NCBI GenBank assembly: GCA_964473105.1
Contig: CAYYNQ010000038.1
Span: forward strand, 6,806 to 70,805
Length of the DNA stretch: 64,000 bases
Reading direction: 5' to 3'
DNA from: an uncultured Candidatus Sumerlaeota bacterium
Lineage (GTDB): Bacteria > Sumerlaeota > Sumerlaeia > MVZB01
The position numbers were made by a program, and so were the translations under genes. Shown piece after piece: positions 21,057 to 60,911 of this stretch (within the stretch, counting starts at the first letter, position 1; each line of letters opens with the position of its first letter). Below the pieces are notes generated by a model, which worked only from the letters and a program-made list of their open reading frames with translations, was not told the origin of the DNA and did no database searches.

Positions 21057-22808
21057 ATGAAAACACAAATAGCACAACTTCTCGTGTTTCTTCTCCTGGC
21101 TGACTGGGTTTCAGCCGAACCCTCCATCGGTTCCATGGTGCCCCGGGCGGCTCAGAGAGGGACCACCGTCACCCTTGAGCTTTGGGGCGGCGGTCTCGAA
21201 CATGTCCATTCCGTCTGGGTCGAAGATACGGATCTGGATTTCCGGATTGTTCCTGATGTGCCGAAACCCGAATTGAGAATCGAGGTTGGCATTCCCGCGG
21301 ACCATGCTCCCAAGACATACGGCATTCGACTCGTCTCACATGCCGGGGTATCCGCCTTGGCGGAGTTTCGCGTGACCGGTGAGCCCTGTGTCCTTGAAAC
21401 CGATACCACCCATGATTTGGCTGCGAACGCCCAGTTGCTGGAGGTGCCCTCGATCATCCAGGGCACTGTTGGCGAGGCGGGTGCGCGCGACCTTTACGCC
21501 ATTGATGTCGAGGCCGGTCAGGAACTGTTGATCGAAGGCCTGACCATCGGTCGCGGCGCCACATCGGGATTCTCACTCAGTGCCGGATTCAGGATGGTCT
21601 TTGCGCTTTATCGTCAGGCTGAGAACTGGTTTGAGGGGAAACGCATCGTTCGTCTGGGGGAGGGAAACAGCCCGCCACGACTTCGATACCATTTTGAGGA
21701 AAGCGGACGTTATTATATCGCCGTTTGGGGGTTTCTAGGCGAGGGCAAGCAGGATATGCACTATATGTTGCGCATCACGGATCAACCATCTGCACCCGGC
21801 GCGTTCATCCCGGAATATGTGACCTGGGGGGGTGAATTCCAGCGCAATCTTCCGGTTTCCCGTCTGCGTGACCTCTGGAATGGGATTGTTTATGTCGCCG
21901 CCTCGCCTCCTCAAGAGGATGAGGAGGAAAAGGGGGAGCCTCGCAAGGGCTGGGAGATGCCCACTGATGAGGATGTCCCGGTTCTACTGGAGTCCAGTCC
22001 CGACACGGGCACGCTGGTTGCATCCGTTCAGATTCCAACCCTGATGGAGGGGACGATCGGTTCGCCCGGCGATGTCGATGAATATGCGTTCAGTGCGGCC
22101 AAAGGTGATCGGATTGCCATTGAGATTCAGGCTCCCAAGGCCCGTCCGGCTTATTTCAACCCCTACATTCGGGTCCTTGCCGATGACGAAAGTGAGGTGT
22201 GCTCGAACCTCTACAAGAAGGTCGAGGGGGATGGTGATGACTGGGTGCGTCACCTGCAGAATAGAATCATCTATACCTTCCGGTTGGGTGGACAATACCG
22301 TCTACAGGTTCGCGACGTCACGTTTCGCGAGGGTGCGGATGATTTTGTCTATCGGGTGTTATTGAGACCTCAGGTGCCGCACATCAGTTCGATTGCGGTC
22401 GAAGGCGACCGGCTGAATCTGCATCGGGATCGAGCCACGAAAATCAAGATGACTGTTCACCAGGAGGAGGGTTTCAAGGGGGATGTTGCATTTATCGTCG
22501 AGAACCTTCCCGAGGGTGTGATTGCCCTTCCTGCCGCCGATGTCGAACCGGACAAGGGAGTCCCCTTCCCGACAGTCCATCCGGAGTGGTATGAGGGTAA
22601 AAAGCGCGAAGTCGCGTTACAGCTGCTGGTTGGTCCCGATGCCCCTCCAACCGACAGCCCCCGGTGGATTGAAATCAAGGCCCGGCAGATTGCACACGGC
22701 CAGGTCGGCGAGCCGTATTCCGTCCGTAAAATCCTTGCAACGGTGACCGGGCCCGCGCCTGCGAAACAGGATCCCGTTGTCGATGCATCAGGAGGGGAGG
22801 CGCCATGA
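21057..22808 (+). CDS. secreted multi-beta-sandwich protein of unknown function ('A1'; two pre-peptidase-C-terminal-like modules flanked by Ig-like modules)
   Basis: 583 aa. Signal peptide MKTQIAQLLVFLLLADWVSA. Two modules have the pattern IQGT(V/I)G..G(D)xDxYA(I/F)..(A)G(Q/D)..I(E).. followed by YY/YR-rich strands. It is a clear paralogue of the protein at 33129-34961. Its stop overlaps the next gene's start (ATGA). Confidence 0.8.
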   Translation: MKTQIAQLLVFLLLADWVSAEPSIGSMVPRAAQRGTTVTLELWGGGLEHVHSVWVEDTDLDFRIVPDVPKPELRIEVGIPADHAPKTYGIRLVSHAGVSALAEFRVTGEPCVLETDTTHDLAANAQLLEVPSIIQGTVGEAGARDLYAIDVEAGQELLIEGLTIGRGATSGFSLSAGFRMVFALYRQAENWFEGKRIVRLGEGNSPPRLRYHFEESGRYYIAVWGFLGEGKQDMHYMLRITDQPSAPGAFIPEYVTWGGEFQRNLPVSRLRDLWNGIVYVAASPPQEDEEEKGEPRKGWEMPTDEDVPVLLESSPDTGTLVASVQIPTLMEGTIGSPGDVDEYAFSAAKGDRIAIEIQAPKARPAYFNPYIRVLADDESEVCSNLYKKVEGDGDDWVRHLQNRIIYTFRLGGQYRLQVRDVTFREGADDFVYRVLLRPQVPHISSIAVEGDRLNLHRDRATKIKMTVHQEEGFKGDVAFIVENLPEGVIALPAADVEPDKGVPFPTVHPEWYEGKKREVALQLLVGPDAPPTDSPRWIEIKARQIAHGQVGEPYSVRKILATVTGPAPAKQDPVVDASGGEAP

Positions 22809-25681
22809 ATCCGCGTTTCCGGATCATCAATCCCGTCATGTTCAAGATCACGGTCGCGATCGTGCTTGCGCTTGCTGTGCTTTGGCCGGTGAATGGGGAT
22901 CATCATGTTTCCCTGGCCCCGGACATGGAGGAAGCGGAACTTCTTTATGAAGACCGCTGCTCGATTTGTCACGAGGAGGACGGCAACTCGGATATCGAGA
23001 AGCTGAACCTTGTCGATCACCTCTGGAAACACGGGGGCTCACTTGAACAGATCGGGAAGACGATCAGCGAGGGGATCCCCGGGACCAAGATGAAGCCCCA
23101 GCGCGACAAGTTGACCGCCGAACAGATTCGCGGGCTGGCCGCTTTTGTCAAGCATCTGGAGAAGACCATGCATGGGAAAACCACAGGACCTGTGGATAGT
23201 CCCGATGCATCCGGTATCGATGACAGAGTCAGGCGTGATGTCCCCGATCTGGACATGTTACCCAAATTGGAGTTACTTCGCCTGCTGCCTGCGACGTTCG
23301 AGCTCAACGGCCCGCAAGCCGCCCAGGAGTTGATCGTGATGGGTATCTTCGCCGACGGGATTGAACGCGATCTGACCGCGGCCAGCCGGTTCTCCGTCTC
23401 GGATCCGGAACTGGCAGATGTTCATCCCTCGGGCCGGTTGGCCGCGAAATCGGATGGTGAAACGAGCCTGCGGGCCGAGGTTGCCGGCCGGTTTATCGAA
23501 CACCCTGTTCGTATACGGGGCACAGGGGAGGAACGGCCCTTCAATTTTGGCCGCGAAATCGGCGGCGTCTTGACGCGCAACGGCTGCAACGCCTATGACT
23601 GCCACGGCGGGATCAAGGGCCGTGCAGGTTTCAAGTTGTCATTTAATGGACTGCGTCCCGCAGAAGACTATGAATGGATTGTGCAGGGCGGCGGCTTCCA
23701 GGTCTTGACCGATGAAATTCTCGGCGAACGCATGCCACGGGTGAATACCGGGGACCCGGGGGAAAGCCTGATCCTGCTGAAGCCGACGATGCAACTCGAT
23801 CATGAGGGCGGAAAACGTCTCTATAAGGATAGCCCCCAGTATCGCATCCTGCTGGAATGGATCCGTGCCGGTGCCCCTGATTCGGACCCGGAAGCCGTCC
23901 AGTATCAGATCAGGAACCTGATCGTGCATCCGGCCGAGTCCGTCCTGCTGCCCGACCAGACCCAGAAGATCGTCGTCATGGCCGAGCTGGCTGACGGTAG
24001 TATCGAGGACATCACCGACCAGGTCTATTTCAGGTCTAACAACAAGGATATCGCAAGGATGATTGCCCCGGGCATCGTGCAGGCCCGAATTGCCGGCGAG
24101 GCCGACATCATTATCCGTGCCGTTGGCCGTTCCGGCAGCGCGCGAATCGGTGTCATCCGGAAACCTGTCCCTGAAATCGCTCTCCCACCCGCGAACAATC
24201 TCATTGATGAAAACGTGTTCGCGAAGCTTCAGAAGTTTCACCTGGTCCCTTCGGACCTGTCCTCGGACGGCGAGTTCCTGCGAAGGATCTGCCTTGACCT
24301 GACCGGGCGGCTCCCACCTGCCCATCGTGCACGGGAGTTCCTGGAGGACCCTGATCCCGCCAAACGTGAGGAACTGATCGACATCCTTCTGGAATCACCG
24401 GAATACGATGATTTCTGGACATACCGATTCGCGGACCTGTTCCGTGTCGCCCTCTACACCGGAAATGCATATCCGGCTTTCACCAAGTGGTACCATGAAT
24501 GGATTCGTGAGAACATCGAGACCAATAAATCCTGGGACCAGGTCGCCCGTGAGAGGCTGAGCGCGCAGGGCATGTTCGGGCCGTCCCGTCATTATTTCAT
24601 CGATCGGCCGGCGCAGGATTCCATGGCCGAACAGATTCGTGTGTTCATGGGACGTCGTTTCGATTGTGCACAATGTCATGACCACCCGTTTGAGATCTGG
24701 AGTCAGGACCAGTTCTGGGGACTCACTGCATTCTTCGGCCGGATCGTCGAGATCGGCAAGTACGGCGCCGGCCTGTTCGCCGATCTTCCAGGCGGACATG
24801 GAGACCGTGGCAAGGGAGGCGATATCATCCACCCGAGAAACAAGAAGGTGGTGATCCCCGCTTACCTCGACGGCCATGCCCTGCCTGGGGAAAAACATGA
24901 GGATCCACGCAGGTATTTGGCAGACTGGGTCACAGGGCACTCCTTCTTCTCCGAGGCGATTGTCAACAGGGTCTGGAGCAACTTCTTCGGGCGGGGCATT
25001 GTTGATCCCATCGATGATTTCGGAACGACCAATCCGCCCAGTCACCAGGAATTGCTTGATGAACTCGCCCGTGATTTTGTCGAGAACGGCCATGATATCA
25101 AACAACTTATCCGGCGGATTGTCTCATCGCGCACCTACCAGTTGTCGGGTCGGCCCAACGAGACTAACAGGCATGACCGGGTCAACTACTCCCATGCGAT
25201 CAACCGGCCGCTGGATGCCGAGGTGCTGCTCGACGCGATTGTCGATGTCACCCAGGTTGGAGAGGTCTTCAACCGGCTGCGGGGTGGGATTGCACCCGGT
25301 GGTACACGTGCCATCCAGCTCCGTGAGACCGATGCATATCCCTCCATATTCATGGATGCCTGGGGACGGCCCGACCGGCTGATGATCCCTGAACGTGATG
25401 GCCTGCCCAATATTCAGCAGGCGATGCATGCATTTGCGGGAAAAACTTTCACGGAGAAGCTCGAAACGGAATCAGGTCGCATCGGCAGGCTTGTTGAGAA
25501 CAATGCGACCAACCGGCAGGTGATCGATGAATTCTGCCTGGCTGCACTTACACGTTACCCGACCGAACGCGAGGTGACCGCGCTGGAAAACCTGATTAAC
25601 AGCAGGCCATCACGTCGCGAAGCCATCGAGGACATGGTCTGGGGGTTGATTAATTCGCGCGAATTTTCGTATAATCACTAG
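22805..25681 (+). CDS. planctomycete cytochrome-c domain + Big_2-like + DUF1549 (PSCyt2) + DUF1553 (PSD1) protein ('B1')
   Basis: 958 aa with a hydrophobic Sec-type N-terminus. Motifs: CSICH (nt 22958-22972), GCNAYDCHGG (23585-23605), the DUF1549-type FLRRICLDLTGRLPP..REELIDILLESPEY, and the DUF1553-type FDCAQCHDHPFE (24665-24679). Confidence 0.9.
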   Translation: MNPRFRIINPVMFKITVAIVLALAVLWPVNGDHHVSLAPDMEEAELLYEDRCSICHEEDGNSDIEKLNLVDHLWKHGGSLEQIGKTISEGIPGTKMKPQRDKLTAEQIRGLAAFVKHLEKTMHGKTTGPVDSPDASGIDDRVRRDVPDLDMLPKLELLRLLPATFELNGPQAAQELIVMGIFADGIERDLTAASRFSVSDPELADVHPSGRLAAKSDGETSLRAEVAGRFIEHPVRIRGTGEERPFNFGREIGGVLTRNGCNAYDCHGGIKGRAGFKLSFNGLRPAEDYEWIVQGGGFQVLTDEILGERMPRVNTGDPGESLILLKPTMQLDHEGGKRLYKDSPQYRILLEWIRAGAPDSDPEAVQYQIRNLIVHPAESVLLPDQTQKIVVMAELADGSIEDITDQVYFRSNNKDIARMIAPGIVQARIAGEADIIIRAVGRSGSARIGVIRKPVPEIALPPANNLIDENVFAKLQKFHLVPSDLSSDGEFLRRICLDLTGRLPPAHRAREFLEDPDPAKREELIDILLESPEYDDFWTYRFADLFRVALYTGNAYPAFTKWYHEWIRENIETNKSWDQVARERLSAQGMFGPSRHYFIDRPAQDSMAEQIRVFMGRRFDCAQCHDHPFEIWSQDQFWGLTAFFGRIVEIGKYGAGLFADLPGGHGDRGKGGDIIHPRNKKVVIPAYLDGHALPGEKHEDPRRYLADWVTGHSFFSEAIVNRVWSNFFGRGIVDPIDDFGTTNPPSHQELLDELARDFVENGHDIKQLIRRIVSSRTYQLSGRPNETNRHDRVNYSHAINRPLDAEVLLDAIVDVTQVGEVFNRLRGGIAPGGTRAIQLRETDAYPSIFMDAWGRPDRLMIPERDGLPNIQQAMHAFAGKTFTEKLETESGRIGRLVENNATNRQVIDEFCLAALTRYPTEREVTALENLINSRPSRREAIEDMVWGLINSREFSYNH

Positions 25682-25701
25682 ATAACCATGGATGGACACG
25701 A

Positions 25702-27060
25702 ATGAAGAACAAACAGAAGACCAGAACGTTCGGCTGCCTGAGCTGCACTGAGGAACAGGTTCGACGGCGTGATTTTCTGCGCATCGGTTCGCTCGGGCTG
25801 CTCGGTATCAGTCTGGGGCAGTTCCTGCAGGCCCGGTCAGTCATGGCTGCCGCGAAAGAGGCCGTCAGGCAGGGCAAGGCCGAGGCCTGTATCCTGATCT
25901 GGCTCGAGGGTGGCGCGAGCCAGATCGATACCTGGGATCCCAAGCCCAACAGCAACTTTCGTGCGATTTCAACCAACGTGCCGGGAATCCAGGTCTCGGA
26001 ACTTCTGCCCCAGTGTGCGAGACACATGGATAAACTCTCCATCATCCGCACGATGCAGACCGAGGAACAAAACCATCCGGCGGCAACCCACTATGCTGTC
26101 ACCGGTCACCGGCCCAATCCCGCCATGCAGTTTCCGGGATTTGGTGCGGTGATCAGTCGCGAGAAGGGCAGGCGGGGTGTCATTCCGCCCCACGTCCTTG
26201 TCCCGGAGTGGGAAAGGGAACGCCAGTATGAAAAATATTTTGGCTCGGCCTTCATCGGTGCCGAGTTCAACCCGATGGTGATCCCTGATCCCAGCGCGGA
26301 GGATTTCGAGGTGGCCGACTTGCGGCTTCCCAAGTCGATCACCCCTGAAAGAATCGAGGACCGCCGCACATTCATGGAGATTTGGGACAGTTTTCACCGT
26401 GAAAAAGCCGAGATGGCCGAGTATGGCGCCATGGATGATTTTCGACAACGCGCGCTGGACATGCTGACTACCCGGGCTGTTCGGGATGCGTTCGACCTCT
26501 CGCAGGAACCGGACACGGTGAGGGATCGTTACGGGCGGGACGGCGTCGGCCAGAGCGTCTTGATGGCCCGAAGACTTGTCGAGGCCGGCAGCCGGTTCGT
26601 GACGGCAGCCGGTTACGGCACCAACCAGTGGGATGCCCACTCGGATAATGACAAAAAACATCGCGATCTCCTTGTTCCGCCGCTCGATATTTCCCTGTCG
26701 GCGCTGCTCGATGACCTTGAGGAACGCGGCATGCTGGATTCGACGGTCGTAATCTCGATGGGTGAATTCGGACGCACCCCGCACATCAATCCCAACCTCG
26801 GTCGTGACCACTGGCCCGACTGCTGGTCGCTGGTGATTGGCGGAGGCGGCATCCGCGGGGGTCAGGTTATCGGTGAAAGCGATGAGAGGGGAGCCTATAT
26901 CGCGGATCGCAGGGTGACGATGGGTGATGTTTACGCCACGATCTACAAGGCGCTCGGGATCGACTGGACCAAGGAATACATGCACCCGATCGGGCGCCCG
27001 GTCAAGATTGCCAACTCGATCGATGACGAGACCGGTCGTCCAATTGAGGAGCTTCTCTGA
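25702..27060 (+). CDS. DUF1501 protein, Tat-exported, alkaline-phosphatase/sulfatase-like superfamily ('C1')
   Basis: 452 aa. RRRDFLRIGSLGLLG is a twin-arginine signal. Other motifs: LEGGASQIDTWDPKP, MGEFGRTPHINPNLGRDHWPDCWS. Confidence 0.9.
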   Translation: MKNKQKTRTFGCLSCTEEQVRRRDFLRIGSLGLLGISLGQFLQARSVMAAAKEAVRQGKAEACILIWLEGGASQIDTWDPKPNSNFRAISTNVPGIQVSELLPQCARHMDKLSIIRTMQTEEQNHPAATHYAVTGHRPNPAMQFPGFGAVISREKGRRGVIPPHVLVPEWERERQYEKYFGSAFIGAEFNPMVIPDPSAEDFEVADLRLPKSITPERIEDRRTFMEIWDSFHREKAEMAEYGAMDDFRQRALDMLTTRAVRDAFDLSQEPDTVRDRYGRDGVGQSVLMARRLVEAGSRFVTAAGYGTNQWDAHSDNDKKHRDLLVPPLDISLSALLDDLEERGMLDSTVVISMGEFGRTPHINPNLGRDHWPDCWSLVIGGGGIRGGQVIGESDERGAYIADRRVTMGDVYATIYKALGIDWTKEYMHPIGRPVKIANSIDDETGRPIEELL

Positions 27061-28046
27061 TGAACCGGAGAAAATTTCTGGGTTCGACCGTGATGGCTGG
27101 CGCCGCACTGCCATTCACAGGGTGCAGCAGACTGATGGACTGGAAAGGTGGAAGCATGTCCATAGACAACATCAGGCTCCTCGACGAGGCTGAGCTGATT
27201 GTGGATGCCGGGGCAACACTGGGGGAGGGGCCCATCTGGGATGAAGCCAACCGTGTTCTCTACTGGCTGGACATCGAGTCCTCCGAACTGCACGAATTTG
27301 ATCCCGCGACGGGAGAGGATCGTTTCTGGAATCTTGGCCAGCAGATCGGGACCGTCGTGCCCTGCCAGTCCGGGGGTGTGATGCTTGCGCTTCACGAGGG
27401 CTTCGCCCATTTTGACACGGACGTCGAAAAACTGACTCTGATTAGCAACCCCGAAGCCCACATGCCCACGACGCGATTCAATGACGGGAAGTGCGATCCG
27501 GCGGGGAGGTTCTGGGCCGGGACATTATCCATGGAGAATGAGGGCAACATCGCCAGCCTCTACATGATGGCCGGGGACCGGTCGGTTCGTCGCATGCTGG
27601 GCGACATCACCTGTTCCAACGGGATCAACTGGAGTCCGGACAACAAGACGATGTACTTTATCGACACGCCGACACACAAGGTCGACGCCTTTGATTATGA
27701 CATTGAAACCGGGAATATCTCCAACCGCAGGCCCGTGATCGAGATGCCTGTCGAGATCGGTTATCCCGATGGGATGACCATCGACACCGAGGGTATGTTA
27801 TGGATAGCTCCGTGGGGTGCGGGCAAGGTCATTCGTTGTAATCCGAAAACCGGTGAATATCTCGCGGCGGTTCCGTGCCGGGCGCTGCAGACCACGGCTT
27901 GTGCATTTGGTGGCCCGGATCTGCGTGACCTTTACATCACAACTGCCGCCGTTGAGGCGGGAATGCCGAGGGGTGAAAACGCTGGCGGGCTGTTTCGTGC
28001 CCGTCCCGGTTCACAGGGGCATCCCATGCCGCCTTTCGCCGGATAG
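27060..28046 (+). CDS. SMP-30/gluconolactonase/LRE family beta-propeller protein, exported (Tat/lipoprotein-like signal)
   Basis: 328 aa. The N-terminus is MNRRKFLGSTVMAGAALPFTGCS. Family motifs: GEGPIWDEANRVLYWLDI, SNGINWSPDNKTMYFIDT, YPDGMTID. The start ATG shares one base with the TGA stop of the DUF1501 gene. Confidence 0.85.
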   Translation: MNRRKFLGSTVMAGAALPFTGCSRLMDWKGGSMSIDNIRLLDEAELIVDAGATLGEGPIWDEANRVLYWLDIESSELHEFDPATGEDRFWNLGQQIGTVVPCQSGGVMLALHEGFAHFDTDVEKLTLISNPEAHMPTTRFNDGKCDPAGRFWAGTLSMENEGNIASLYMMAGDRSVRRMLGDITCSNGINWSPDNKTMYFIDTPTHKVDAFDYDIETGNISNRRPVIEMPVEIGYPDGMTIDTEGMLWIAPWGAGKVIRCNPKTGEYLAAVPCRALQTTACAFGGPDLRDLYITTAAVEAGMPRGENAGGLFRARPGSQGHPMPPFAG

Positions 28047-28051
28047 GCGTT

Positions 28052-33128: not shown

Positions 33129-34961
33129 TTATTCGGCCGCAAGCACCATGACAAGTTTTTCACCGGCCGCATGGGGTAGGCTGGTTTTTCCGTCCAGGAT
33201 CGAGCGCCAGGAAAACCGGACCTTTCGTGGCGAAGGGGTTGGGGGGGCATCTGCATCGGCATACAGGATGATTTCCGCCTCGCGTGTAACCGTCAGAAAC
33301 CTTTCCTTGAAACCCTCGTCAGGGTTGATTCCGGTCTCGGGATTGTAATCGCTTGCGGTCCAGGCGTGTAATCCTTGGGGGAGGTCCTCCACCGAGATGG
33401 CGATCTCACCGCTGTATCCCTCCTCCTGCTGCATCATCACGGTCAGCTTGTGTGCATTCCCCTGCCGCAGGTTGACCCGGTCGCCTGTAATCCAGACGGC
33501 TCCGACGTGCGGGATCTGCCGGCGGACCAACAACCGGTAATGGAAATCCGGGTCTCCGTTACGTGAGGTGATATCACGCATTTCCAGTAAATATTCACCC
33601 TCCAGTTTGAAGGTGTACAGGGTGCGTGGCTGGATGTCCTTGGCATAGAATGTAAAGTTGCGGACCAGCCGTTTGTAGATGTTCGTCAGGAACTCGTTGC
33701 CATCCATGTCACGGATTCCTATGCGTGGGTTGAACAGCGGTGGCCCCTTGACCGGGGTTTCAATTTCAAACACCAGTGGCTCGTCCTTGAAGGCATGGAA
33801 CCGGTAATAATCGACATCATCGGGGCGGTCGATGAAGCCTTCGATAATGACCGGCGGGCTGATCTCTTGTGCCTTCTCCATGGAGTCATTGTCGTCGGTT
33901 TTTTCGGCAACCATGGGGATATCATCCAAAATCACTGTCCCGGCGGGGTCGGCGACTGGCATCGCGGGCTCCGGGTTTTCCCGTTGGGGGCTGCCCGGAG
34001 CTTTCCCGTCCTGTTTCCCAACGGTTCGGGTTGAATCGGGGGAGGCAACGGTCAGGTCCCAGAGCTGCCTGATACGACCGGGTGGCAGGCCGCGTTTCCA
34101 GTGTCCGTAGGCCAGCGCTACAGCCTGGGTGTCATCGGCGGAATGCCTGATTGAAATCATGTAAACCGAGGTTTCCGCACCGGGTTTTCGGCCTGGATGT
34201 GATTCCATCGACTCAATGCGCAGCAGATACTGTCCGGCCTCTTCAAACCGATATTCCAGTCTGGGATCGCGGGACAAGTGAGGGCTGACCGGTTCATCGT
34301 TCCGGGCCAGGCGCCTGATTTGGCCTGCATCGAACCAGCTGCCTGTTGGCGCAAAGAGGCTTAACTGCGGGTCGAAGTCCGGGCCTGTCGACTTGACCTG
34401 GAAGACCAGTTGCTCCCCTGCATCCACTTCGAATGAGTAATAGTCCAGCTGGTTGATTTCGATGATGCGCCCGCAGATCACCGACGGGAATGTGACCGGC
34501 TGTGCGTTGGACGGGAGATCATGCGGCCCGGCCATCTCTGTGATGATCGGTTGATCCACCACATCGAAGGATACGCTGTTTGTCAGGCCATCGGAATTGA
34601 TGAAACGTATGCTATGGGACCCGATGCGTGCATCGCCCGCAATACACAACTGCAGCGTGGGGGAGGCATCCCCTTCCGTATGGAGAATCTGTGCAGTCAA
34701 TCCCTGCAAATCATCGGACATTGTCCCGGTAGTCGAATGATCGCCATCGGGTGGTGTTTCGGGTGACTTTTTAACCGGGCCGGAGGGGAACCAGACGGTG
34801 CTTGAGGGTTCGGTGATGACTCCTCCGCCAACTTCCGCCAGCACGACCTGGCCCGGTTCACCACAGGGGGGATAAATAAAGGTGGCATCCTTTGCCCATG
34901 TGCCGTTGCCGCATACAATCAGCAAGGCTGTGAGGAGGAAAGAGGTCCAGCTTGTATTCAT
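33129..34961 (-). CDS. secreted multi-beta-sandwich protein of unknown function ('A2', paralogue of 21057-22808)
   Basis: 610 aa. Signal peptide MNTSWTSFLLTALLIVCGNGTWA. It is collinear with A1. Example: A2 PHDLPSNAQPVTFPSVICGRI..DYYSFEVDAGEQLVFQV versus A1 THDLAANAQLLEVPSIIQGTV..DLYAIDVEAGQELLIEG. Second example: A2 YRLLVRRQIPHVGAV..GDRVNL..QQEEGYSGEIAISVEDLPQG versus A1 YRVLLRPQVPHISSI..GDRLNL..HQEEGFKGDVAFIVENLPEG. Confidence 0.8.
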   Translation of the reverse strand: MNTSWTSFLLTALLIVCGNGTWAKDATFIYPPCGEPGQVVLAEVGGGVITEPSSTVWFPSGPVKKSPETPPDGDHSTTGTMSDDLQGLTAQILHTEGDASPTLQLCIAGDARIGSHSIRFINSDGLTNSVSFDVVDQPIITEMAGPHDLPSNAQPVTFPSVICGRIIEINQLDYYSFEVDAGEQLVFQVKSTGPDFDPQLSLFAPTGSWFDAGQIRRLARNDEPVSPHLSRDPRLEYRFEEAGQYLLRIESMESHPGRKPGAETSVYMISIRHSADDTQAVALAYGHWKRGLPPGRIRQLWDLTVASPDSTRTVGKQDGKAPGSPQRENPEPAMPVADPAGTVILDDIPMVAEKTDDNDSMEKAQEISPPVIIEGFIDRPDDVDYYRFHAFKDEPLVFEIETPVKGPPLFNPRIGIRDMDGNEFLTNIYKRLVRNFTFYAKDIQPRTLYTFKLEGEYLLEMRDITSRNGDPDFHYRLLVRRQIPHVGAVWITGDRVNLRQGNAHKLTVMMQQEEGYSGEIAISVEDLPQGLHAWTASDYNPETGINPDEGFKERFLTVTREAEIILYADADAPPTPSPRKVRFSWRSILDGKTSLPHAAGEKLVMVLAAE

Positions 34962-50850: not shown

Positions 50851-50989
50851 CCGTGAAAACTTACTCTGGTATTCCCCGGAGCTTTCATTGCTGCATGGAG
50901 TCAGCACGACAAGTGTAGCACAGCAGGTCGTGTCCGTAATCAAAATTCAGGCCATGCCCCCGGTGGTCATGACCAACAGCAGCGATCCG

Positions 50990-52093: not shown

Positions 52094-52192
52094 GGCTCTT
52101 CTACCATTCTGTATCCTTGCATGTTTTCACTCCTTATGCCCCCTGTCGGGGATTGGGTTGTGGGTTTTCCGCCCGTCACGCACCAGTTTGTT

Positions 52193-53050: not shown

Positions 53051-53064
53051 TGTGTATTCCCCCG

Positions 53065-54006: not shown

Positions 54007-54041
54007 TCAGTCCAGGAGCGTGTCCCGTCGGCCGGGAAACC

Positions 54042-55478: not shown

Positions 55479-55678
55479 GGCCCGTTCTCCAGTTGAAAGA
55501 AGGAGTTTCGGGGGGAATGGCAGGCAGGATTGCCCGGGGCGTTTTTCCCGTGTCGGGGTGCCGTTTGTGGGTGGAGGATCCGTACAAGACAATACTATCG
55601 TTGCAGTTTTGTGGATGGGTGATAGATTATGACGCGTTCAGTCAATTAATTCAGCCAGCGAAAGTGGGAGTTGCGCTC

Positions 55679-56841: not shown

Positions 56842-59397
56842 TTGACTTCCGTAACCAATCATGTCGATAATGACCACGGCATGAGATATCGTAAACACTC
56901 CAATATCAGAATTTACGTCGATCATATTTTTCGTCATCTCGTGCTGCTCCTACTGCTTTGGGGCTTGATCACCCCGTCTGCTGCGAATGGGGCAACAGAT
57001 AGTGAATCCGGTCTGACAACGGACACGGTGACGGAACCGGATGTTGTCGCAGCCCCGGCGACCGGGGATGAAACAGCTTCGGGGGCAGAGTTGGAAGGCT
57101 CGCGACTGGAGGAGGCGGCCGTCCTATTTGAATCCGAATGTTCACTCTGTCACGGGCCCGACGGCGGTGGGCAGGGTGAAGACAATCTGGATCTCACCGA
57201 TGGATTCTGGAATCACGGGGGCAGTCTCCAGGACATTATCGGGACGATTACGGAAGGGGTGCCGGACACCCTGATGAAGCCGCAGGAGGGCAGGCTGACC
57301 GTCGAGCAGATCGGGGACATGGCCCGTTATGTCAGGCGGCTGGCCTTGGATAAGCACGCTGAGACTGAAGAATCAAAACGGGATGCGGTCACCGAGCTGA
57401 CCGACGCGGTCGCCGGTAGTCTGCCCACGGCCCTTGTGATACCCGTTATGGACAGAAAAAATTTCATCGATGAGTTCATCTTCGGTAAAATGGAGGCTGG
57501 GGGGATTCCTCATGCCGGTTTGTGCACTGATGCCGAGTTCATGCGCAGGGTCTATCTGGACCTTTGGGGCCGTCTGCCTGACGCGGATGCCGTCCGCAGG
57601 TTTGTCACCGACGACAATCCGGGGAAACGGGACAGGCTGATCGATCAACTGCTGGCCTGTGACCACGAGGAATTGCGGGCCGTGATTGTGGACCTAGCAG
57701 AAAAAAACCCGACTTGGGACTCCAAGCGAGTCTACGAGGAGCTGATCAACACGGGTGGCCGCTTCAAGCCCGCGACCGAGGAGGATCAGAAGAACTTGGA
57801 ACGGGTCACCAGTGGTATCACGCGCGCGCTGAGACGCCAGAAAGAGCCTTACAAGGGCCCACTTTACTGGCTTGTCGAGAAGCCTTTCCTCAGCAAGTGG
57901 TCGTTCTTCTTCGAGGACCTCTTCAGGAACGGCCTGGACGGCAACGGAAACAACCGGGCTCTTTTCCATGAATATCTCGTTTCGTTTCTACGGCACAATC
58001 TTCCTTACGATTATGTCGTGCGTGAAATGCTGACGGTATCCACCCCCAACAGCGAGGCCTCGGGCGCCTCGGGACTGCTGGCTAGGCATGGAGTGATGCG
58101 TAACATCGGGGCCGTTTACCCGGAGCACGAGGATCTTTGTGATGAGGTTGCCGTTAACGTATCGAGATGCTTCCTCGGGATTGATCTGGGCTGCATCTCC
58201 TGCCACGACGGAAAGGATCATCTTGAAAACGTCAACCTTTGGCTTTCAAGCAGGACTCGCGAGGATTTCTGGAAACATGCCGCGTTCTTCGGAAACACTC
58301 GGATTTTTCGTCCGGCTCCGACTGGCCCAAAGGGCCATCAATTCGCGGTACTCGATACAACCTCGATGCGGACTGGAAAATCCGTGGGGATGGCCGATTA
58401 CCCCTTTGATTCACCTGAGACAGGGAATGAAACAAACGGCTATGATACCGCCACCACCAGCGTGCTGCGGGTGGCCCGTAACGGGAAGGCTCCGGTTCGG
58501 CCAACCTTCATCCTCAGCGGTGAAAAACCCTCGGTAGAATCGGGTCTTCGGGACGAATATGCACGAATGATCACGTCCAATGTCCAGTTTGCAAGGCACA
58601 CCGTCAACCTCATCTGGGCGCAGTTCATGACCGTGGGGATCGTTGATCCGCCATTCAGCTGGGACCTTTTGCGCCAGGATCCGGACAACCCGCCGCCTGC
58701 CCCATGGGATCTTCAACCCTCTCATCCGGAACTGCTTGCAGCTTTGGCGGAGGATTTTGTGAGTAGCGACCACGACCTGCGAAGGCTGATGCGGACAATC
58801 TGCCGGTCCAACGCCTACCAGCTCTCCAGCAGGTTTGATGGTGAATACAAGGCCGAATATGACCGTTATTACGCCCGTAAGCTGGTTCGCCGCCTGTCGG
58901 CTGAGGAGATTTACGATGCCATCGCCAAGGCGACCAATGTTTTCGGCCACGGGACGGACAAACTTCCCGACTGGTCCGGTTACACGATGGAGTTGCCCAG
59001 CCCCGATAATCAGTATGCCAAGCACGGCATGAAGGAGTTGATGTACCTGCTGGGTCGAGGCGACCGCAATACCAAGATGCCCGATACGAATATGTCAATC
59101 GTTGTGTCGTCGCTGCTCTTATACAGCGACATCATCAGGGAGAAGGTGCTGGCTGCGACCGAGGATAGCCGCACCGGTTTTCTGCTCAACGAGATCCCTG
59201 TCTGGCAATGGCGGGACATGGAGGGGGGTGGGGCGCGGAAGGTTGTCGAGGAGTTGTATTTGTGGACGCTGTCACGGTTTCCCTCCGATGCTGAGATGGC
59301 AAGCGCGGTCGGGCACCTGGAGAATTACCGGGACCTGGGGGTTGAGGATCTCCAGTGGGCGCTGATCAACCAGCCGGAGATGATGCTGAACTACTAG
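56842..59397 (+). CDS. planctomycete cytochrome-c domain + DUF1549 + DUF1553 protein ('B3', divergent)
   Basis: 851 aa. CSLCHGPDGGG (nt 57139-57153) sits in a mono-heme cytochrome-c-like module (..GVPDTLMKPQ..). FMRRVYLDLWGRLPD..RDRLIDQLLA is the DUF1549 signature. GCISCHDGKDH (58192-58206) is the DUF1553-type motif. The track start is a TTG, and ATG 56881 (MRYRKHS..LLLLLWGLITPSAANG) is an equally good start. Confidence 0.85.
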   Translation: MTSVTNHVDNDHGMRYRKHSNIRIYVDHIFRHLVLLLLLWGLITPSAANGATDSESGLTTDTVTEPDVVAAPATGDETASGAELEGSRLEEAAVLFESECSLCHGPDGGGQGEDNLDLTDGFWNHGGSLQDIIGTITEGVPDTLMKPQEGRLTVEQIGDMARYVRRLALDKHAETEESKRDAVTELTDAVAGSLPTALVIPVMDRKNFIDEFIFGKMEAGGIPHAGLCTDAEFMRRVYLDLWGRLPDADAVRRFVTDDNPGKRDRLIDQLLACDHEELRAVIVDLAEKNPTWDSKRVYEELINTGGRFKPATEEDQKNLERVTSGITRALRRQKEPYKGPLYWLVEKPFLSKWSFFFEDLFRNGLDGNGNNRALFHEYLVSFLRHNLPYDYVVREMLTVSTPNSEASGASGLLARHGVMRNIGAVYPEHEDLCDEVAVNVSRCFLGIDLGCISCHDGKDHLENVNLWLSSRTREDFWKHAAFFGNTRIFRPAPTGPKGHQFAVLDTTSMRTGKSVGMADYPFDSPETGNETNGYDTATTSVLRVARNGKAPVRPTFILSGEKPSVESGLRDEYARMITSNVQFARHTVNLIWAQFMTVGIVDPPFSWDLLRQDPDNPPPAPWDLQPSHPELLAALAEDFVSSDHDLRRLMRTICRSNAYQLSSRFDGEYKAEYDRYYARKLVRRLSAEEIYDAIAKATNVFGHGTDKLPDWSGYTMELPSPDNQYAKHGMKELMYLLGRGDRNTKMPDTNMSIVVSSLLLYSDIIREKVLAATEDSRTGFLLNEIPVWQWRDMEGGGARKVVEELYLWTLSRFPSDAEMASAVGHLENYRDLGVEDLQWALINQPEMMLNY

Positions 59398-59516
59398 GAG
59401 ACCTTTTCAGGAATGCCCCTTCGACGGGATCATGCATTCATGTTGATCCATGTTACGGCTGCCGCGGGCCAATATCCGGTTTGACCGAAAATGATTCAGC
59501 GGGTAGAATTCGAGCC

Positions 59517-60911
59517 ATGATAAAGAATCCGCATATCCCCGTTCTTTCGCGCAGGGATTTCATGCGTGTCGGCGGAGTCGGGGTTGCCGGCTATTCACTG
59601 CTGCCGATGCTCATGCCGCTGAACGTGCAGGCCCGGGGGAAAGTCGAGCCTCGCGGCGGCGCTGAGATCTGCATCTTCATCATGCTGCAGGGTGCGGCCA
59701 GCCAGATGGACACTTTTGATGTCAAGGAGGGGCCGGATACCCCGGGGGATTTTGATATCCGCACCGTCAGGGATGGCCTGCGCATGCCGGTTGGCACGTT
59801 GCCGATGCTCTCCGAGCGTTTCCAGAAATACACGATCGTACGTTCGATGGGGGCTTGGGACCTGAACCATGACCGCAGCACATATCATCTGCAGTCGGGG
59901 CGTGAATTCCAGATTGCCCGGGCCGGCGAGATCCCCTCGATCGGGTCGGTCATTGCATATGAGATGCGCGACCGGCGCAGGGACTCTGATATCCTGCCTT
60001 CCTTCATCTCCTTTGATGTCCAGACATCCATCCTGGTCAACTGCGGGTTTCTGCCTTCATATACCGCGCCGATGAACCTCAAGCAGGGGACGCCTCTCAC
60101 ATTCGTGATGTCTGAGGAAGAAAAGCAGACTTTTGAAAGAAGGCAGCAACTCGCCATGACCCTCAACCGGGAGTGGCATGAGACCCCTGGCGACCGGTCC
60201 CGGATATTCAGGGACCTGGATGAATACCGCAGGTCCGCCACGCTGTTGAGCGACCCCCGTTGTGCGGAGGTTTTCACCCTGTCCGACGAAGACAAGGAAA
60301 GGTACGGTGAGCACAACAGTGGATTCGGTCCCCTGGGAAATGCCTGTGCGATGGCCCGAAATATCGTGGAGGCGGACCTGGGCACGAAGTTCATCCTGAT
60401 CAATCATGGTAGCTGGGACCTGCATACCGATATTTATAAAAAGGACACCCATTGGAGCCAGTATACGATGAACGCCCAGCTGGACCGGGGGCTGGCCAGC
60501 CTGCTGGATGATCTGGAGTCGAGGACCGACAAGGAGGGACGGCGCCTGATCGACAAGACGCTGGTCGCTTGCGTGGGAGAATTCGGCCGCACCCCGGGAG
60601 TGCTGAACGAGTTGAACGGCAGGGACCACCATCTCGATGCCGGGATCGCGGTCTTTGCCGGCGCCGGTGTCAAAGGCGACCAGGTGCTGGGCGCGACGGA
60701 TAATGTTGGGGGGAAGATCATCGACCCGGGATGGCACAAGCAGAGGCCCGTTTATCCTGAGGATGTCTTGGCAACGATCTATTCAGTCATGGGTATCGAC
60801 TGGACCAAGAAGATTACCCAGACCCCCTCGGGCCGGGCATTTGAATACACCGAATATATTGCGCCGAAAGGCCTGATGGATTTTGGTGAAATAAGCGAGC
60901 TGTTTGCCTGA
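59517..60911 (+). CDS. DUF1501 protein, Tat-exported ('C3', divergent)
   Basis: 464 aa from MIKNPHIPVLSRRDFMRVGGVGVAGYSL. Motifs: LQGAASQMDTFDVKE, VGEFGRTPGVLNELNGRDHHLDAG. The track ORF (59355) overlaps the end of B3. Confidence 0.85.
   Translation: MIKNPHIPVLSRRDFMRVGGVGVAGYSLLPMLMPLNVQARGKVEPRGGAEICIFIMLQGAASQMDTFDVKEGPDTPGDFDIRTVRDGLRMPVGTLPMLSERFQKYTIVRSMGAWDLNHDRSTYHLQSGREFQIARAGEIPSIGSVIAYEMRDRRRDSDILPSFISFDVQTSILVNCGFLPSYTAPMNLKQGTPLTFVMSEEEKQTFERRQQLAMTLNREWHETPGDRSRIFRDLDEYRRSATLLSDPRCAEVFTLSDEDKERYGEHNSGFGPLGNACAMARNIVEADLGTKFILINHGSWDLHTDIYKKDTHWSQYTMNAQLDRGLASLLDDLESRTDKEGRRLIDKTLVACVGEFGRTPGVLNELNGRDHHLDAGIAVFAGAGVKGDQVLGATDNVGGKIIDPGWHKQRPVYPEDVLATIYSVMGIDWTKKITQTPSGRAFEYTEYIAPKGLMDFGEISELFA

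What the first reader, a model, noticed from the sequence alone, without database searches (positions are those of the whole stretch)
21057..60911. Three paralogous DUF1549/DUF1553 + DUF1501 gene pairs within 40 kb: a recurrent, functionally uncharacterised periplasmic two-protein system
The three pairs are:
- B1/C1 at 22805-25681 and 25702-27060 (plus strand)
- B2/C2 at 39026-36459 and 36450-35116 (minus strand)
- B3/C3 at 56842-59397 and 59517-60911 (plus strand)

In every pair the large protein (851-958 aa) has a Sec-type hydrophobic N-terminus. It also carries the DUF1549 signature F(L/M)RR(I/V)(C/Y)LDL(T/W)G(R/T)LP and the DUF1553 signature C-x-x-C-H-D. The ~445-465-aa partner carries a twin-arginine signal (RRRDFLRIG, DRRSFLRAG, SRRDFMRVG). 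The order large-then-small and close spacing (8, 20 and 119 nt) are conserved.

As far as I know, these families (the PSCyt/PSD nomenclature from the Rhodopirellula genome analyses) are hugely expanded in Planctomycetes. They have no experimentally established function.

The different export routes imply that the DUF1501 partner folds or acquires a cofactor in the cytoplasm. It would then meet a heme-motif protein in the periplasm. That is the logic of a periplasmic redox or hydrolytic enzyme complex. All three copies sit among catabolic and transport genes, which suggests substrate-specific paralogues of one system.
Basis: partly seen in the sequence, partly recalled or inferred. Interest (0 to 1): 0.8.

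Follow-up and report, generated by a model that had tools for sequence, protein, structure and literature searches.

The report
Known cytochrome-like plus DUF1501 gene modules
The three gene pairs are real, but they belong to a gene module first described in 2012 whose function is still unknown; two of the three are actually three-gene sets, and the smaller protein is a sulfatase-like metal enzyme that has lost the usual catalytic residue.

Summary
Pfam assigns B1-B3 to PSCyt2/DUF1549 + PSD1/DUF1553 and C1-C3 to DUF1501, and all quoted motifs and spacings are correct.

Corrections:
- The CxxCH lies in DUF1549, not DUF1553.
- B2 has no N-terminal class-I cytochrome c domain.
- Clusters 1 and 2 are triads. 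A third secreted PPC-type protein (A1, A2; 31% identical) flanks each pair.

The pairing is already published, including the PPC protein (Kamneva 2012, PMC3542564; He 2017). No paper found assigns a function.

New here:
- In 80 species-representative genome loci, C1-like genes have B directly upstream in 55/57 and A upstream of B in 45/49, across Acidobacteriota, Planctomycetota and others.
- C has a sulfatase/alkaline-phosphatase fold. However, an invariant His aligns with the formylglycine position, and Glu-Phe replaces the Asp-His/Asn metal motif. No Ser/Thr/Cys is universally conserved.
- B carries two heme-type motifs in 69 of 70 full-length orthologues. Its PSCyt2+PSD1 core models confidently (pLDDT 90) and has no fold relative in the PDB.

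Most likely it is a periplasmic enzyme complex: a Tat-exported metal enzyme wired to a Sec-exported c-type cytochrome. This is inferred, not shown. Interest is moderate and novelty is low.

The parts
21057..22808 (+). A1: secreted 583-aa beta-rich accessory protein (PPC-type family, no Pfam hit itself). Its stop overlaps the B1 start by 4 nt (ATGA).
   Evidence: ORF. No Pfam or NCBIfam hit. Paralogue of A2 (31% identity, E 1e-80). 73 homologues, all 'hypothetical', about half with PF04151 PPC. Lies upstream of B in 45/49 C1-like loci. Junction sequence.
22805..25681 (+). B1: Sec-signal 958-aa protein. Domain order is class-I cytochrome c, Big_2, PSCyt1-like (CX4CH), Big_2, PSCyt2/DUF1549, PSD1/DUF1553.
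   Evidence: Pfam. Motifs. Two Big_2 regions from the profile search against PDB. Homologues.
22922..23158 (+). B1 N-terminal class-I cytochrome c domain (residues 40-118; CSICH at residue 52). It is optional in the family.
   Evidence: Cytochrome_CBB3 8e-11 and Cytochrom_C 2e-5. Matches CcoP and cytochrome c-552 in PDB. Absent from B2 and from most homologues, which cover only 84% of B1.
23525..23887 (+). B1 divergent PSCyt1-like domain with the GCNAYDCH (CX4CH) motif at nt 23585-23605.
   Evidence: Motif nearly invariant in B1/B2-type proteins (58 of 63). hhalign against canonical PSCyt1 domains gives prob 96.4%, E 1e-9. Pfam PSCyt1 scores only E 0.19.
24203..24745 (+). B1 PSCyt2/DUF1549 domain, with FLRRICLDLTG and the invariant CAQCHDH (nt 24665-24679).
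   Evidence: Pfam 1e-37. CxxCHxH present in 70/70 B ORFs from other genomes.
24908..25594 (+). B1 PSD1/DUF1553 domain. Together with PSCyt2 it forms one all-alpha globule.
   Evidence: Pfam 2e-39. AlphaFold2 model of residues 455-958: pLDDT 90.2, pTM 0.91. No PDB fold match at E<0.001.
25702..27060 (+). C1: Tat-signal DUF1501 protein (452 aa) with a sulfatase/alkaline-phosphatase-superfamily fold. The twin-arginine RRRDFLRI is at nt 25762-25785. A conserved GCLSC precedes it at nt 25732-25746.
   Evidence: Pfam 1e-98. Model pLDDT 77.5. Foldseek top hits are sulfatases and LtaS. Profile matches. Invariant residues. N-terminal Cys motif.
27060..28046 (+). SMP-30/gluconolactonase-family beta-propeller with a Tat-like lipoprotein signal (MNRRKFLG...FTGC). 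Its start overlaps the C1 stop by 1 nt. It is a lineage-specific fourth operon member.
   Evidence: Pfam SGL 2e-85. Junction and N-terminus. In the same position only in the near relative L001.
33129..34961 (-). A2: secreted 610-aa PPC-type accessory protein, downstream of C2 (154-nt gap).
   Evidence: Weak PPC 5e-4. Paralogue of A1. A-family HMM score 975.
35116..36450 (-). C2: Tat-signal DUF1501 protein (444 aa).
   Evidence: Pfam 5e-100. DRRSFLRAG. 54% identical to C1.
36459..39026 (-). B2: Sec-signal 855-aa protein with domain order Big_2, PSCyt1-like, Big_2, PSCyt2, PSD1. CX4CH is at nt 38532-38552 and CAQCH at nt 37449-37463. It has no class-I cytochrome domain.
   Evidence: Pfam. Motifs. 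46% identical to B1 over residues 56-855.
56842..59397 (+). B3: divergent partner with domain order class-I cytochrome c, PSCyt2, PSD1, and no Big_2 or PSCyt1. CSLCH at nt 57139-57153 and CISCH at nt 58192-58206. The probable true start is ATG 56881.
   Evidence: Pfam. Motifs and N-terminal sequence. 26% identical to B1 and B2.
59517..60911 (+). C3: divergent Tat-signal DUF1501 protein (464 aa).
   Evidence: Pfam 6e-58. SRRDFMRVG. 29-31% identical to C1 and C2. Keeps D79, K81, R116, H125, D311, H313, GEFGR and GRDH.

Best explanation
The window carries three members of the known PSCyt2/PSD1 + DUF1501 module. Two are the A-B-C three-gene subtype (PPC-type protein, then PSCyt1*/Big_2/PSCyt2/PSD1 protein, then DUF1501). 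One is a plain B-C pair.

Shown:
- C is a Tat-signal protein with a sulfatase-like alkaline-phosphatase-superfamily fold and a rebuilt active site. Its invariant residues are three His (125, 313, 370), acidic residues (76, 79, 311, 355, 369) and four basic residues (K81, R116, R358, R368).
- The invariant H125 aligns with the position of the sulfatase formylglycine nucleophile.
- B is a Sec-signal protein that almost always carries two heme-c-type motifs. One is in an exchangeable N-terminal cytochrome domain. The other is in a PSCyt2+PSD1 helical core with no solved relative.
- A, B and C are inherited as one unit across phyla.

Inferred mechanism:
- C is loaded with metal in the cytoplasm and exported folded by Tat. 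In the periplasm it docks on B.
- C's probably binuclear His/carboxylate centre acts on an anionic organic substrate.
- B's hemes link that centre to the periplasmic cytochrome c pool. This is the same logic as periplasmic dehydrogenases built from a Tat-exported catalytic subunit and a Sec-exported cytochrome c subunit.
- A, the fastest-evolving partner, and the Ig-like domains of B supply substrate or partner binding.
- The paralogues differ in specificity.
For: Identity:
- Pfam hits far above the gathering thresholds.
- The module is published.

Unit of inheritance:
- B lies upstream of C in 55/57 C1-like loci, and A upstream of B in 45/49.
- The same A-B-C order occurs in Bryobacter aggregatus.
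- Start/stop overlaps or short gaps link the genes.
- B and C distance matrices correlate at r=0.94 (0 of 999 permutations reach this).
- The paralogue identities are congruent.

C as a metal enzyme:
- Foldseek hits to sulfatases, LtaS and AP-superfamily proteins at prob 1.0.
- The profile aligns GEFGR with the GDHG/GDNG metal motif of sulfatases and LtaS.
- hhalign against sulfatases gives prob 85%. It places H125 on the CxPxR cysteine, with the same +9/+10 Thr-Gly spacing.
- The invariant residues all lie in loops after core strands.
- RR is 99% conserved.

B as an electron carrier:
- CxxCHxH is present in 70/70 orthologues, and 69/70 have exactly two heme-type motifs.
- The N-terminal cytochrome module is class-I in B3, CX4CH-PSCyt1 in B1/B2 and canonical PSCyt1 in other subfamilies. 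The cytochrome function is therefore kept while the domain is swapped.
- B1 adds a third cytochrome domain.

Conservation gradient: mean identity is C 0.57 > B 0.50 > A 0.33. This fits a catalytic subunit, a scaffold and a specificity subunit.
Against: - No heme binding, metal content, complex formation or activity has been measured for any member.
- I could not run a multimer prediction.
- To my knowledge every characterised alkaline-phosphatase-superfamily enzyme is a hydrolase, transferase or mutase, not an oxidoreductase.
- Solo DUF1501 genes without an adjacent B exist (also stated in PMC3542564).
- In Proteobacteria DUF1501 pairs with DUF1800 (PMC5122149). As far as I recall DUF1800 has no heme motif, so the conserved partnership may not need heme.
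- The residue-level confidence of the H125-to-formylglycine alignment is low.
- The C1 model is only moderately confident (pLDDT 77.5; TM to PDB hits 0.3-0.4).
- The distance correlation is also expected from shared genome history alone.
Confidence: 0.4

Rival explanations
1. A purely hydrolytic system. C is a metal-dependent esterase or transferase for phospho-, sulfo- or similar anionic esters that uses a metal-activated water. B is a non-redox scaffold or substrate-binding partner whose Cys/His motifs are structural or sensory. A helps bind polymeric substrate.
For: - C has an AP-superfamily fold, closest to sulfatases and LtaS.
- Four invariant basic residues suit an anionic substrate.
- Some DUF1501 proteins are fused to a Laminin_G_3 lectin-like domain.
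- B-type proteins elsewhere carry carbohydrate-binding modules and neighbour sulfatases (PMC3542564; PMC5615132).
- Sulfatase genes flank the module in 5 of 80 loci.
- Solo DUF1501 genes exist.
Against: - The canonical nucleophile and the DD and DH/DN metal ligands of sulfatases are all replaced.
- This reading does not explain why B keeps exactly two heme-type motifs. It also does not explain why different cytochrome domains are swapped into the same N-terminal position.
- There is no phosphate- or sulfur-starvation context in the window.
Confidence: 0.28
2. B is the enzyme. The 500-residue PSCyt2+PSD1 core would be a novel heme-dependent catalyst (peroxidase- or oxygenase-like, or a dehydrogenase). 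C would be a non-catalytic or auxiliary partner, for example supplying metal, binding substrate or helping assembly.
For: - The core is large and confidently folded, carries one invariant CxxCHxH and has no solved relative.
- Many invariant charged residues lie in PSCyt2.
- An N-terminal cytochrome domain is always available as an electron relay.
Against: - C is the most conserved of the three proteins, at 60-70% identity between phyla.
- C has a full set of invariant His/Asp/Arg/Lys residues typical of an active site.
- The DUF1501 family is very large, with 32,308 50%-identity clusters, and it also occurs without B.
Confidence: 0.12
3. There is no complex. B and C (and A) are merely co-regulated periplasmic proteins acting at separate steps. 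Alternatively, the module serves cell compartmentalisation or intracellular membranes, as first proposed.
For: - Adjacency and co-inheritance prove a shared function, not physical contact.
- Kamneva et al. reported a correlation of 0.852 with intracellular membranes.
Against: - The fixed B-then-C order, with 8-20 nt gaps or overlaps, holds across phyla.
- The module is abundant in Acidobacteriota (Bryobacterales), Sumerlaeia and Aminicenantes. These groups are not known for such compartments.
- The neighbours are catabolic and transport genes, not envelope genes.
Confidence: 0.12

Closest known systems
DUF1501 + PSCyt1/PSCyt2/PSD1 genetic module of PVC bacteria (Kamneva et al. 2012, PMC3542564; He et al. 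2017, PMC5615132)
   Same: - The same Pfam families, the same adjacency, a Tat motif on DUF1501 and a signal peptide on the cytochrome-like partner.
- Clusters 1 and 2 match three of the four genes of their 'most complex' cluster: DUF1501, a weak-PPC protein and a PSCyt1/Big_2/PSCyt2/PSD1 protein.
   Different: - No PSCyt1/WD40 gene was found among the window ORFs scanned.
- In cluster 1 an SGL beta-propeller lipoprotein follows C instead.
- The PSCyt1 domain here has CX4CH rather than CxxCH.
- The nearest relatives are mostly Acidobacteriota, so the module is not PVC-specific.
DUF1800-DUF1501 operons of Proteobacteria (Goncalves et al. 2016, PMC5122149)
   Same: - A Tat-motif DUF1501 protein encoded next to a larger helical partner.
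- PSD1 gives weak, recurrent hits to the C-terminal half of DUF1800. B2 residues 606-851 hit at E 0.009. Several B homologues carry precomputed PF08811 hits.
   Different: - B here is PSCyt2+PSD1 with heme-type motifs plus extra cytochrome and Ig-like domains.
- The DUF1800 score is below the Pfam threshold.
- I did not examine DUF1800 sequences themselves.
Type I (formylglycine) sulfatases and LtaS-type enzymes of the alkaline phosphatase superfamily
   Same: - The core alpha/beta fold.
- The helix-strand-loop carrying the metal motif aligns.
- The helix after the second core strand keeps the Thr-Gly at +9/+10.
   Different: - The Cys/Ser of CxPxR is an invariant His.
- The DD after strand 1 is not conserved.
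- DH/DN is replaced by Glu-Phe.
- There are new invariant motifs: DxxDPK, WDxH and GRDH.
- No universally conserved Ser/Thr/Cys exists.
- C is therefore not a sulfatase.
Periplasmic dehydrogenases with a Tat-exported catalytic subunit and a Sec-exported cytochrome c subunit (e.g. sulfite dehydrogenase SorAB, flavocytochrome c sulfide dehydrogenase FccAB; from my own knowledge)
   Same: - Adjacent genes, split export routes and a c-type cytochrome partner.
- This is the functional analogy behind the best explanation.
   Different: - Those catalytic subunits carry molybdenum cofactor or FAD.
- C has no recognisable redox cofactor domain and has a hydrolase-type fold.
- The resemblance is an analogy only, not homology.
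Cbp2D/CjX183 c-type cytochrome domain of Cellvibrio japonicus that reduces lytic polysaccharide monooxygenases (PMC8981238)
   Same: A c-type cytochrome domain embedded in a secreted multidomain protein, together with binding modules and a Planctomycete-type DUF (DUF1587). It serves as an electron donor to a metalloenzyme.
   Different: - A different domain family, and a different partner enzyme (a copper LPMO).
- There is no DUF1501 in that system.

Membership tests
Pfam DUF1501 (PF07394) | HMM score above the gathering threshold (27 bits) over the full domain | tested here: met
   C1 scores 331 bits, C2 336 bits and C3 197 bits, covering about 380 of 390 model positions.
Pfam PSCyt2/DUF1549 (PF07583) and PSD1/DUF1553 (PF07587) | HMM scores above the gathering thresholds (29.8 and 28.5 bits) | tested here: met
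   B1 scores 130/136 bits, B2 137/129 bits and B3 95/86 bits.
Pfam PSCyt1 (PF07635) | HMM score above the gathering threshold (22 bits) | tested here: not met
   B1 residues 264-292 score only 12.8 bits (E 0.19). B2 has no hit.
Pfam PSCyt1 (PF07635) | Homology of the CX4CH region to canonical PSCyt1 domains by profile-profile comparison | tested here: met
   hhalign gives prob 96.4%, E 1e-9 over 95 columns. CNxxxCH aligns with CxxCH plus a 2-residue insertion.
Four-gene DUF1501 cluster of Kamneva et al. 2012 | DUF1501 + signal-peptide protein with weak PPC + PSCyt1/Big_2/PSCyt2/PSD1 protein | tested here: met
   Clusters 1 and 2 have all three components. Cluster 3 has only B and C.
Four-gene DUF1501 cluster of Kamneva et al. 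2012 | A fourth gene encoding a PSCyt1/WD40 protein | tested here: not met
   No WD40 hit in any scanned window ORF. Such a gene does occur near a module in Prosthecobacter locus L073.
Alkaline phosphatase superfamily | Core alpha/beta fold | tested here: met
   108 PDB matches at E<=0.001. The top 50 listed are sulfatases, LtaS/LtaP and one AP-superfamily protein, all at prob 1.0 with TM 0.3-0.45. hhalign against sulfatases gives prob 85%.
Alkaline phosphatase superfamily | Ser/Thr/formylglycine nucleophile at the N-terminus of the helix after the second core strand (definition from my own knowledge) | tested here: not met
   An invariant His125 aligns at that position. No Ser/Thr/Cys is universally conserved: S73 76%, T/S77 78%, S/T117 89%.
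Alkaline phosphatase superfamily | Acidic/His metal ligands directly after a late core strand (the DH/DN motif) | tested here: inconclusive
   GEFGR aligns with GDHG/GDNG, so the acid is kept (E/D 99%) but the His/Asn is Phe. An invariant GRDH lies 13 residues downstream in the same loop. No coordinates were available to check the geometry.
Type I sulfatase | C/S-x-P-x-R formylglycine motif | tested here: not met
   The motif is absent at the aligned position (H-P-x-x-x) in C1-C3. The pattern occurs only sporadically elsewhere in the family.
Tat substrates | Twin-arginine consensus (S/T-R-R-x-F-L) followed by a hydrophobic stretch | tested here: met
   RRRDFLRIG, DRRSFLRAG and SRRDFMRVG are present. 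RR is 99% conserved in 144 representatives. The Pfam TAT_signal model is sub-threshold for C3 only (E 0.035).
Tat substrates | Tat-dependent export of the folded, cofactor-loaded protein | not testable with these tools
   This needs export assays in tat mutants.
c-type cytochromes | CxxCH motif in a Sec-exported protein; class-I domain HMM | tested here: met
   Motifs. Cytochrome_CBB3 and Cytochrom_C are above threshold for B1 and B3. B2 has only the PSCyt-type motifs.
c-type cytochromes | Covalently bound heme | not testable with these tools
   No biochemical data were found for any PSCyt2 protein.
Pfam DUF1800 (PF08811) | HMM score above the gathering threshold (26.1 bits) | tested here: not met
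   B2 scores 15.7 bits (E 0.009) over PSD1. It is related but not a member.

The most novel reading that the evidence does not exclude
DUF1501 would be a sulfatase-fold protein in which the formylglycine nucleophile and the canonical metal ligands have been replaced by an invariant His/Asp centre. Wired to a c-type cytochrome with a previously unsolved fold (PSCyt2+PSD1), it would form a new class of periplasmic redox enzyme. That would be the first oxidoreductase built on the alkaline-phosphatase scaffold. It would be deployed in dozens of substrate-specific copies per genome in Planctomycetota, Verrucomicrobiota and Acidobacteriota.
Probability: 0.2. Interest if true: 0.8.

Novelty: already known. 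Interest (0 to 1): 0.4.

Why it matters
DUF1501 is a very large family. It has 32,308 clusters at 50% identity in public data. PSCyt2 and PSD1 each occur 41 times in Rhodopirellula baltica alone. Even so, no member has a known reaction.

These modules make up a visible share of the secreted proteome of abundant soil, freshwater and marine heterotrophs. Knowing their chemistry would therefore change how carbon, sulfur or phosphorus turnover by these phyla is read from genomes.

The window itself adds nothing a specialist would find surprising, because several copies per 40 kb is normal for such genomes. What this analysis adds is a sharper and testable picture:
- a three-protein A-B-C unit conserved across phyla;
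- a catalytic subunit that cannot be a sulfatase or a classical phosphatase;
- a partner that almost always carries two heme-type motifs on a fold with no solved relative.

Tried and rejected
- **Teneurin-like PDB hits.** B1 and the B profile match teneurin-like proteins (E 3e-20 and 9e-50). Only the Big_2 Ig-like repeats match, so this says nothing about function.
- **Phycobilisome-linker similarity.** The Foldseek matches of the B core to phycobilisome linker domains cover about 60 residues at E>4 and prob 0.5-0.7. This is not significant.
- **A conserved pathway around the module.** Clustering of 1,204 flanking ORFs from 80 loci gave no neighbour in more than 10 loci. The most frequent were a TonB-dependent-type outer-membrane barrel (10 loci), an aldolase-like ORF that I did not scan against Pfam (6), a sulfatase (5) and an S9 peptidase (4).
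- **Lineage-specific neighbours.** The SGL lactonase coupled to C1 recurs in the same position only in the near relative L001. The PPIase-domain gene after C3 was not found in any of the 82 loci searched.
- **Sulfatase identity for C.** Rejected.
- **Sequence-only PDB search with C1.** Nothing meaningful came back.
- **NCBIfam.** It has no model for A, B (beyond the cytochrome domain) or C.
- **Organism identity.** The window proteins sit on a 72,102-bp public contig, but no name could be retrieved. The genome is not among the species representatives at more than 68% identity for C1.
- **DUF1800.** Its sequences were not examined directly.
- **Literature.** Five literature searches were run. 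The four aimed at these families found no functional characterisation.

Full report
**1. The observation**

The six ORFs are present at the stated coordinates.

Pfam places B1 (22805-25681+), B2 (39026-36459-) and B3 (56842-59397+) in PSCyt2/DUF1549 and PSD1/DUF1553. It places C1 (25702-27060+), C2 (36450-35116-) and C3 (59517-60911+) in DUF1501. All scores are far above the gathering thresholds.

The quoted FLRR...LDL.G strings, the CxxCH motifs, the twin-arginine strings and the 20, 8 and 119 nt gaps are all correct. My own HMMs find exactly three B, three C and two A genes in the window.

Four details need correction:
- The CxxCH(D) motif lies in the PSCyt2/DUF1549 envelope, not in DUF1553.
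- B2 has no N-terminal class-I cytochrome c domain. Neither do most homologues.
- B3 probably starts at ATG 56881.
- Two of the three 'pairs' are triads.

**2. The third protein**

- A1 (21057-22808+) lies directly upstream of B1 and overlaps its start by ATGA.
- A2 (34961-33129-) lies downstream of C2.
- A1 and A2 are paralogues (31% identity, E 1e-80).
- A1 has 73 homologues in the large protein collection. All are unnamed or 'hypothetical' apart from one marginal hit (E 7.5e-4) labelled 'serine protease', and about half carry a PPC domain.
- A2 itself has a weak PPC hit.
- Cluster 3 has no A gene. A PPIase-domain gene follows C3.
- In cluster 1 the C1 stop overlaps the start of an SMP-30/gluconolactonase-family beta-propeller with a Tat-like lipoprotein signal. 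That gene recurs in the same position only in the closest relative.

**3. Anatomy of C**

- An AlphaFold2 model of C1 (pLDDT 77.5) matches sulfatases, LtaS/LtaP and one other alkaline-phosphatase-superfamily protein in the PDB (prob 1.0, E about 1e-5, TM 0.3-0.45).
- A DUF1501 profile aligns 'vvialGEfGRt' with the GDHG/GDNG metal-ligand motif of sulfatases and LtaS.
- A profile-profile alignment to sulfatases encoded near some modules gives prob 85%, E 7.5e-7. It puts the invariant His125 on the cysteine of the sulfatase CxPxR motif. The Thr-Gly at +9/+10 is identical in spacing, although the per-residue confidence is low.

Conservation across 144 DUF1501 representatives that are at most 50% identical to each other:
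- 100%: R116, H125, D311, H313.
- 99%: D79, K81, R358, R368, H370 and the twin arginines.
- Position 76 is always acidic, 355 is 99% acidic and 369 is 94% acidic.
- No Ser, Thr or Cys is universal: S73 76%, T/S77 78%, S/T117 89%.

All these residues lie in loops that follow core strands of the model. In this superfamily that is where the active site sits.

C is therefore a sulfatase-fold protein with a wholly rebuilt, His/carboxylate-rich and probably binuclear centre. Four invariant basic residues suit an anionic substrate. It is not a formylglycine sulfatase.

An unexplained extra is the extreme N-terminus, before the twin arginines. It is conserved as M-(K/R)-x-x-G-C-L-x-C in most C1-like proteins.

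**4. Anatomy of B**

- B1 and B2 share the order Big_2, PSCyt1-like, Big_2, PSCyt2, PSD1. B1 adds a class-I cytochrome c domain at the front.
- The PSCyt1-like region carries a nearly invariant GCNxxxCHGG.KG.GGFKLS motif, a CX4CH.
- Pfam's PSCyt1 model misses it (E 0.19). Profile-profile comparison with canonical PSCyt1 domains from other modules gives prob 96.4%.
- B3 instead has a class-I cytochrome c domain in front of PSCyt2-PSD1.
- In 70 full-length B ORFs from other genomes, CxxCHxH in PSCyt2 is present in 70, and 69 have exactly two heme-type motifs. A cytochrome-type domain in front of PSCyt2-PSD1 is therefore kept while its family is exchanged.
- The PSCyt2+PSD1 region of B1 (residues 455-958) models as one all-alpha globule with high confidence (pLDDT 90.2, pTM 0.91).
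- It has no PDB fold match at E<0.001 and no sequence-profile match in the PDB.
- PSD1 gives weak, recurrent hits to DUF1800.

**5. Conservation elsewhere**

- The nearest relative is a 57-kb metagenome contig. It is syntenic from the TPP enzyme through A, B, C, SGL, the M24 peptidase, SDR, the PanB-like gene and the S15 peptidase.
- Bryobacter aggregatus has A-B-C preceded by a second PSCyt1/PSCyt2/PSD1 + DUF1501 pair.
- A scan of species-representative genomes with the C profile returned 80 loci. They are mostly Bryobacterales and other Acidobacteriota. Planctomycetia, Sumerlaeia, Aminicenantes and Verrucomicrobia are also present. The sample is biased towards C1-like sequences.
- Among loci at 51% identity or more, B is immediately upstream of C in 55 of 57 with room to see it. 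A is upstream of B in 45 of 49.
- Among the 39-41% identity group the figures are 7/16 and 4/6, and solo DUF1501 genes occur.
- Flanking genes vary. No neighbour family is seen in more than 10 loci.
- B and C distance matrices over 48 triads correlate at r=0.94, and at 0.84 within the C1-like core. Mean identity rises from A (0.33) through B (0.50) to C (0.57).
- Within the window the B and C paralogue identities are congruent (46/26% and 54/31%). The pair therefore duplicated as a unit.

**6. Literature**

- Kamneva et al. 2012 (PMC3542564) described the DUF1501 + PSCyt1/PSCyt2/PSD1 module and the Tat motif. They also described the two-gene form and a four-gene form: DUF1501, a weak-PPC protein, a PSCyt1/Big_2/PSCyt2/PSD1 protein and a PSCyt1/WD40 protein. 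They suggested electron transport with unknown function.
- He et al. 2017 noted that PSCyt2 genes sit next to a conserved unknown gene, and that they neighbour sulfatases and carry carbohydrate-binding modules.
- Goncalves et al. 2016 noted DUF1800-DUF1501 operons with a Tat motif.
- Wecker et al. 2009 counted 41 copies each of PSD1 and PSCyt2 in R. baltica.
- No paper found reports a function, heme binding or a structure.

**7. Mechanism**

Shown: family membership, export signals, operon structure, co-inheritance, the fold of C, the loss of the canonical nucleophile, and the conserved heme-type motifs of B.

Inferred:
- C is metallated in the cytoplasm and exported folded by Tat. From my own knowledge, Tat export is a known way to control metal loading, as for MncA.
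- C docks on B in the periplasm.
- B's hemes connect C's metal centre to the periplasmic cytochrome pool.
- A, together with the Ig-like domains of B, binds substrate.

The closest working analogy is the class of periplasmic dehydrogenases with a Tat-exported catalytic subunit and a Sec-exported cytochrome c subunit (SorAB, FccAB; my own knowledge).

I put 0.4 on this reading. The rivals are:
- A purely hydrolytic enzyme with a non-redox partner: 0.28.
- B as the real enzyme: 0.12.
- No complex, or a role in compartmentalisation: 0.12.

The main counter-arguments:
- No oxidoreductase is known on this fold.
- Solo DUF1501 genes exist.
- The DUF1800 partners probably lack heme (not checked here).
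- There is no direct evidence for heme, metal or a complex.

**8. Verdict**

The finding is accurate but describes a module that has been in the literature since 2012. Several copies within 40 kb are ordinary for genomes rich in these families.

The open question of what this very large family does (32,308 clusters at 50% identity) is real. This window does not by itself make it more testable.

The additions made here give concrete experiments: the A-B-C unit across phyla, His in place of formylglycine, the two-heme rule and the unsolved fold of the B core.

Noticed in passing
window 25732-25746 (C1 residues 11-15, GCLSC); also C2 residues 8-9 (CC); loci L001-L064: The extreme N-terminus of C1-like DUF1501 proteins, before the twin arginines, is conserved as M-(K/R)-x-x-G-C-L-x-C or CxxC. 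Tat n-regions are normally variable. It could be a chaperone recognition site or a cysteine cap on the metal centre.
   Followed up: partly
window 27060-28046 (+): An SMP-30/gluconolactonase-family beta-propeller with a Tat-like lipoprotein signal (MNRRKFLG...FTGC). Its start overlaps the C1 stop codon by 1 nt. It is conserved in that position only in the near relative L001. A second SGL lipoprotein lies at 49774-50943 (-).
   Followed up: partly
window 42304-44007 (+): A 567-aa protein with a hydrophobic N-terminus and two internal repeats, each containing a GCCG...C...C cysteine cluster. It has no Pfam or NCBIfam hit.
   Followed up: no
window 60989-62791 (+): A 600-aa protein with a weak PPIC-type PPIase (rotamase) domain, 77 nt downstream of C3. 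It could be a periplasmic folding helper. It was not found next to any module in the 82 loci searched.
   Followed up: partly
window 1-20800: A dense catabolic island. It holds two PhyH-type dioxygenases, creatininase, two Amidohydro_2 genes, a sugar MFS transporter, CoA-transferase A/B, thiolase, aldehyde dehydrogenase, a TPP enzyme, a DegT aminotransferase and GFO/IDH/MocA and aldo-keto reductases. A prepilin N-methylation-motif protein lies at 7340-8035.
   Followed up: partly
window 49774-55592 (-): An ABC sugar-type uptake operon upstream of cluster 3, read divergently. It comprises a solute-binding protein with a Tat signal, two permeases and a MalK-like ATPase, plus an SGL lactonase.
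   Followed up: no
loci L029, L032, L033, L063 (about 10.5-15.3 kb) and L002, L004, L021: In Bryobacterales an A-B-C triad lies next to a convergent B-C-C array, with two tandem DUF1501 genes after one PSCyt-type gene. Other loci carry two complete modules in tandem.
   Followed up: no
proteins P0359 and P0373 (DUF1501 representatives): These are DUF1501 proteins fused at the C-terminus to other domains. P0359 carries a Laminin_G_3 lectin-like domain. P0373 carries an EF-hand. The lectin fusion hints at glycan substrates.
   Followed up: partly
window 25570-25678 (B1 C-terminus) and B orthologues in L003-L064: B1-like proteins end at a fixed position. Most of the 61 ORFs tallied end in ...x-N-H (52 of 61 end in NH), and B1 itself ends ...REFSYNH. 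In the window, B2 ends in NN and B3 in NY. The conserved free C-terminus may be functional.
   Followed up: no
B1 residues 455-958 model (window 24167-25678): The only weak structural echoes of the PSCyt2+PSD1 core in the PDB are about 60-residue stretches of phycobilisome linker domains (prob 0.5-0.7, E>4). A 2026 paper made a similar remark about DUF1800 proteins (PMC12981691). This is probably a small shared helical motif.
   Followed up: no
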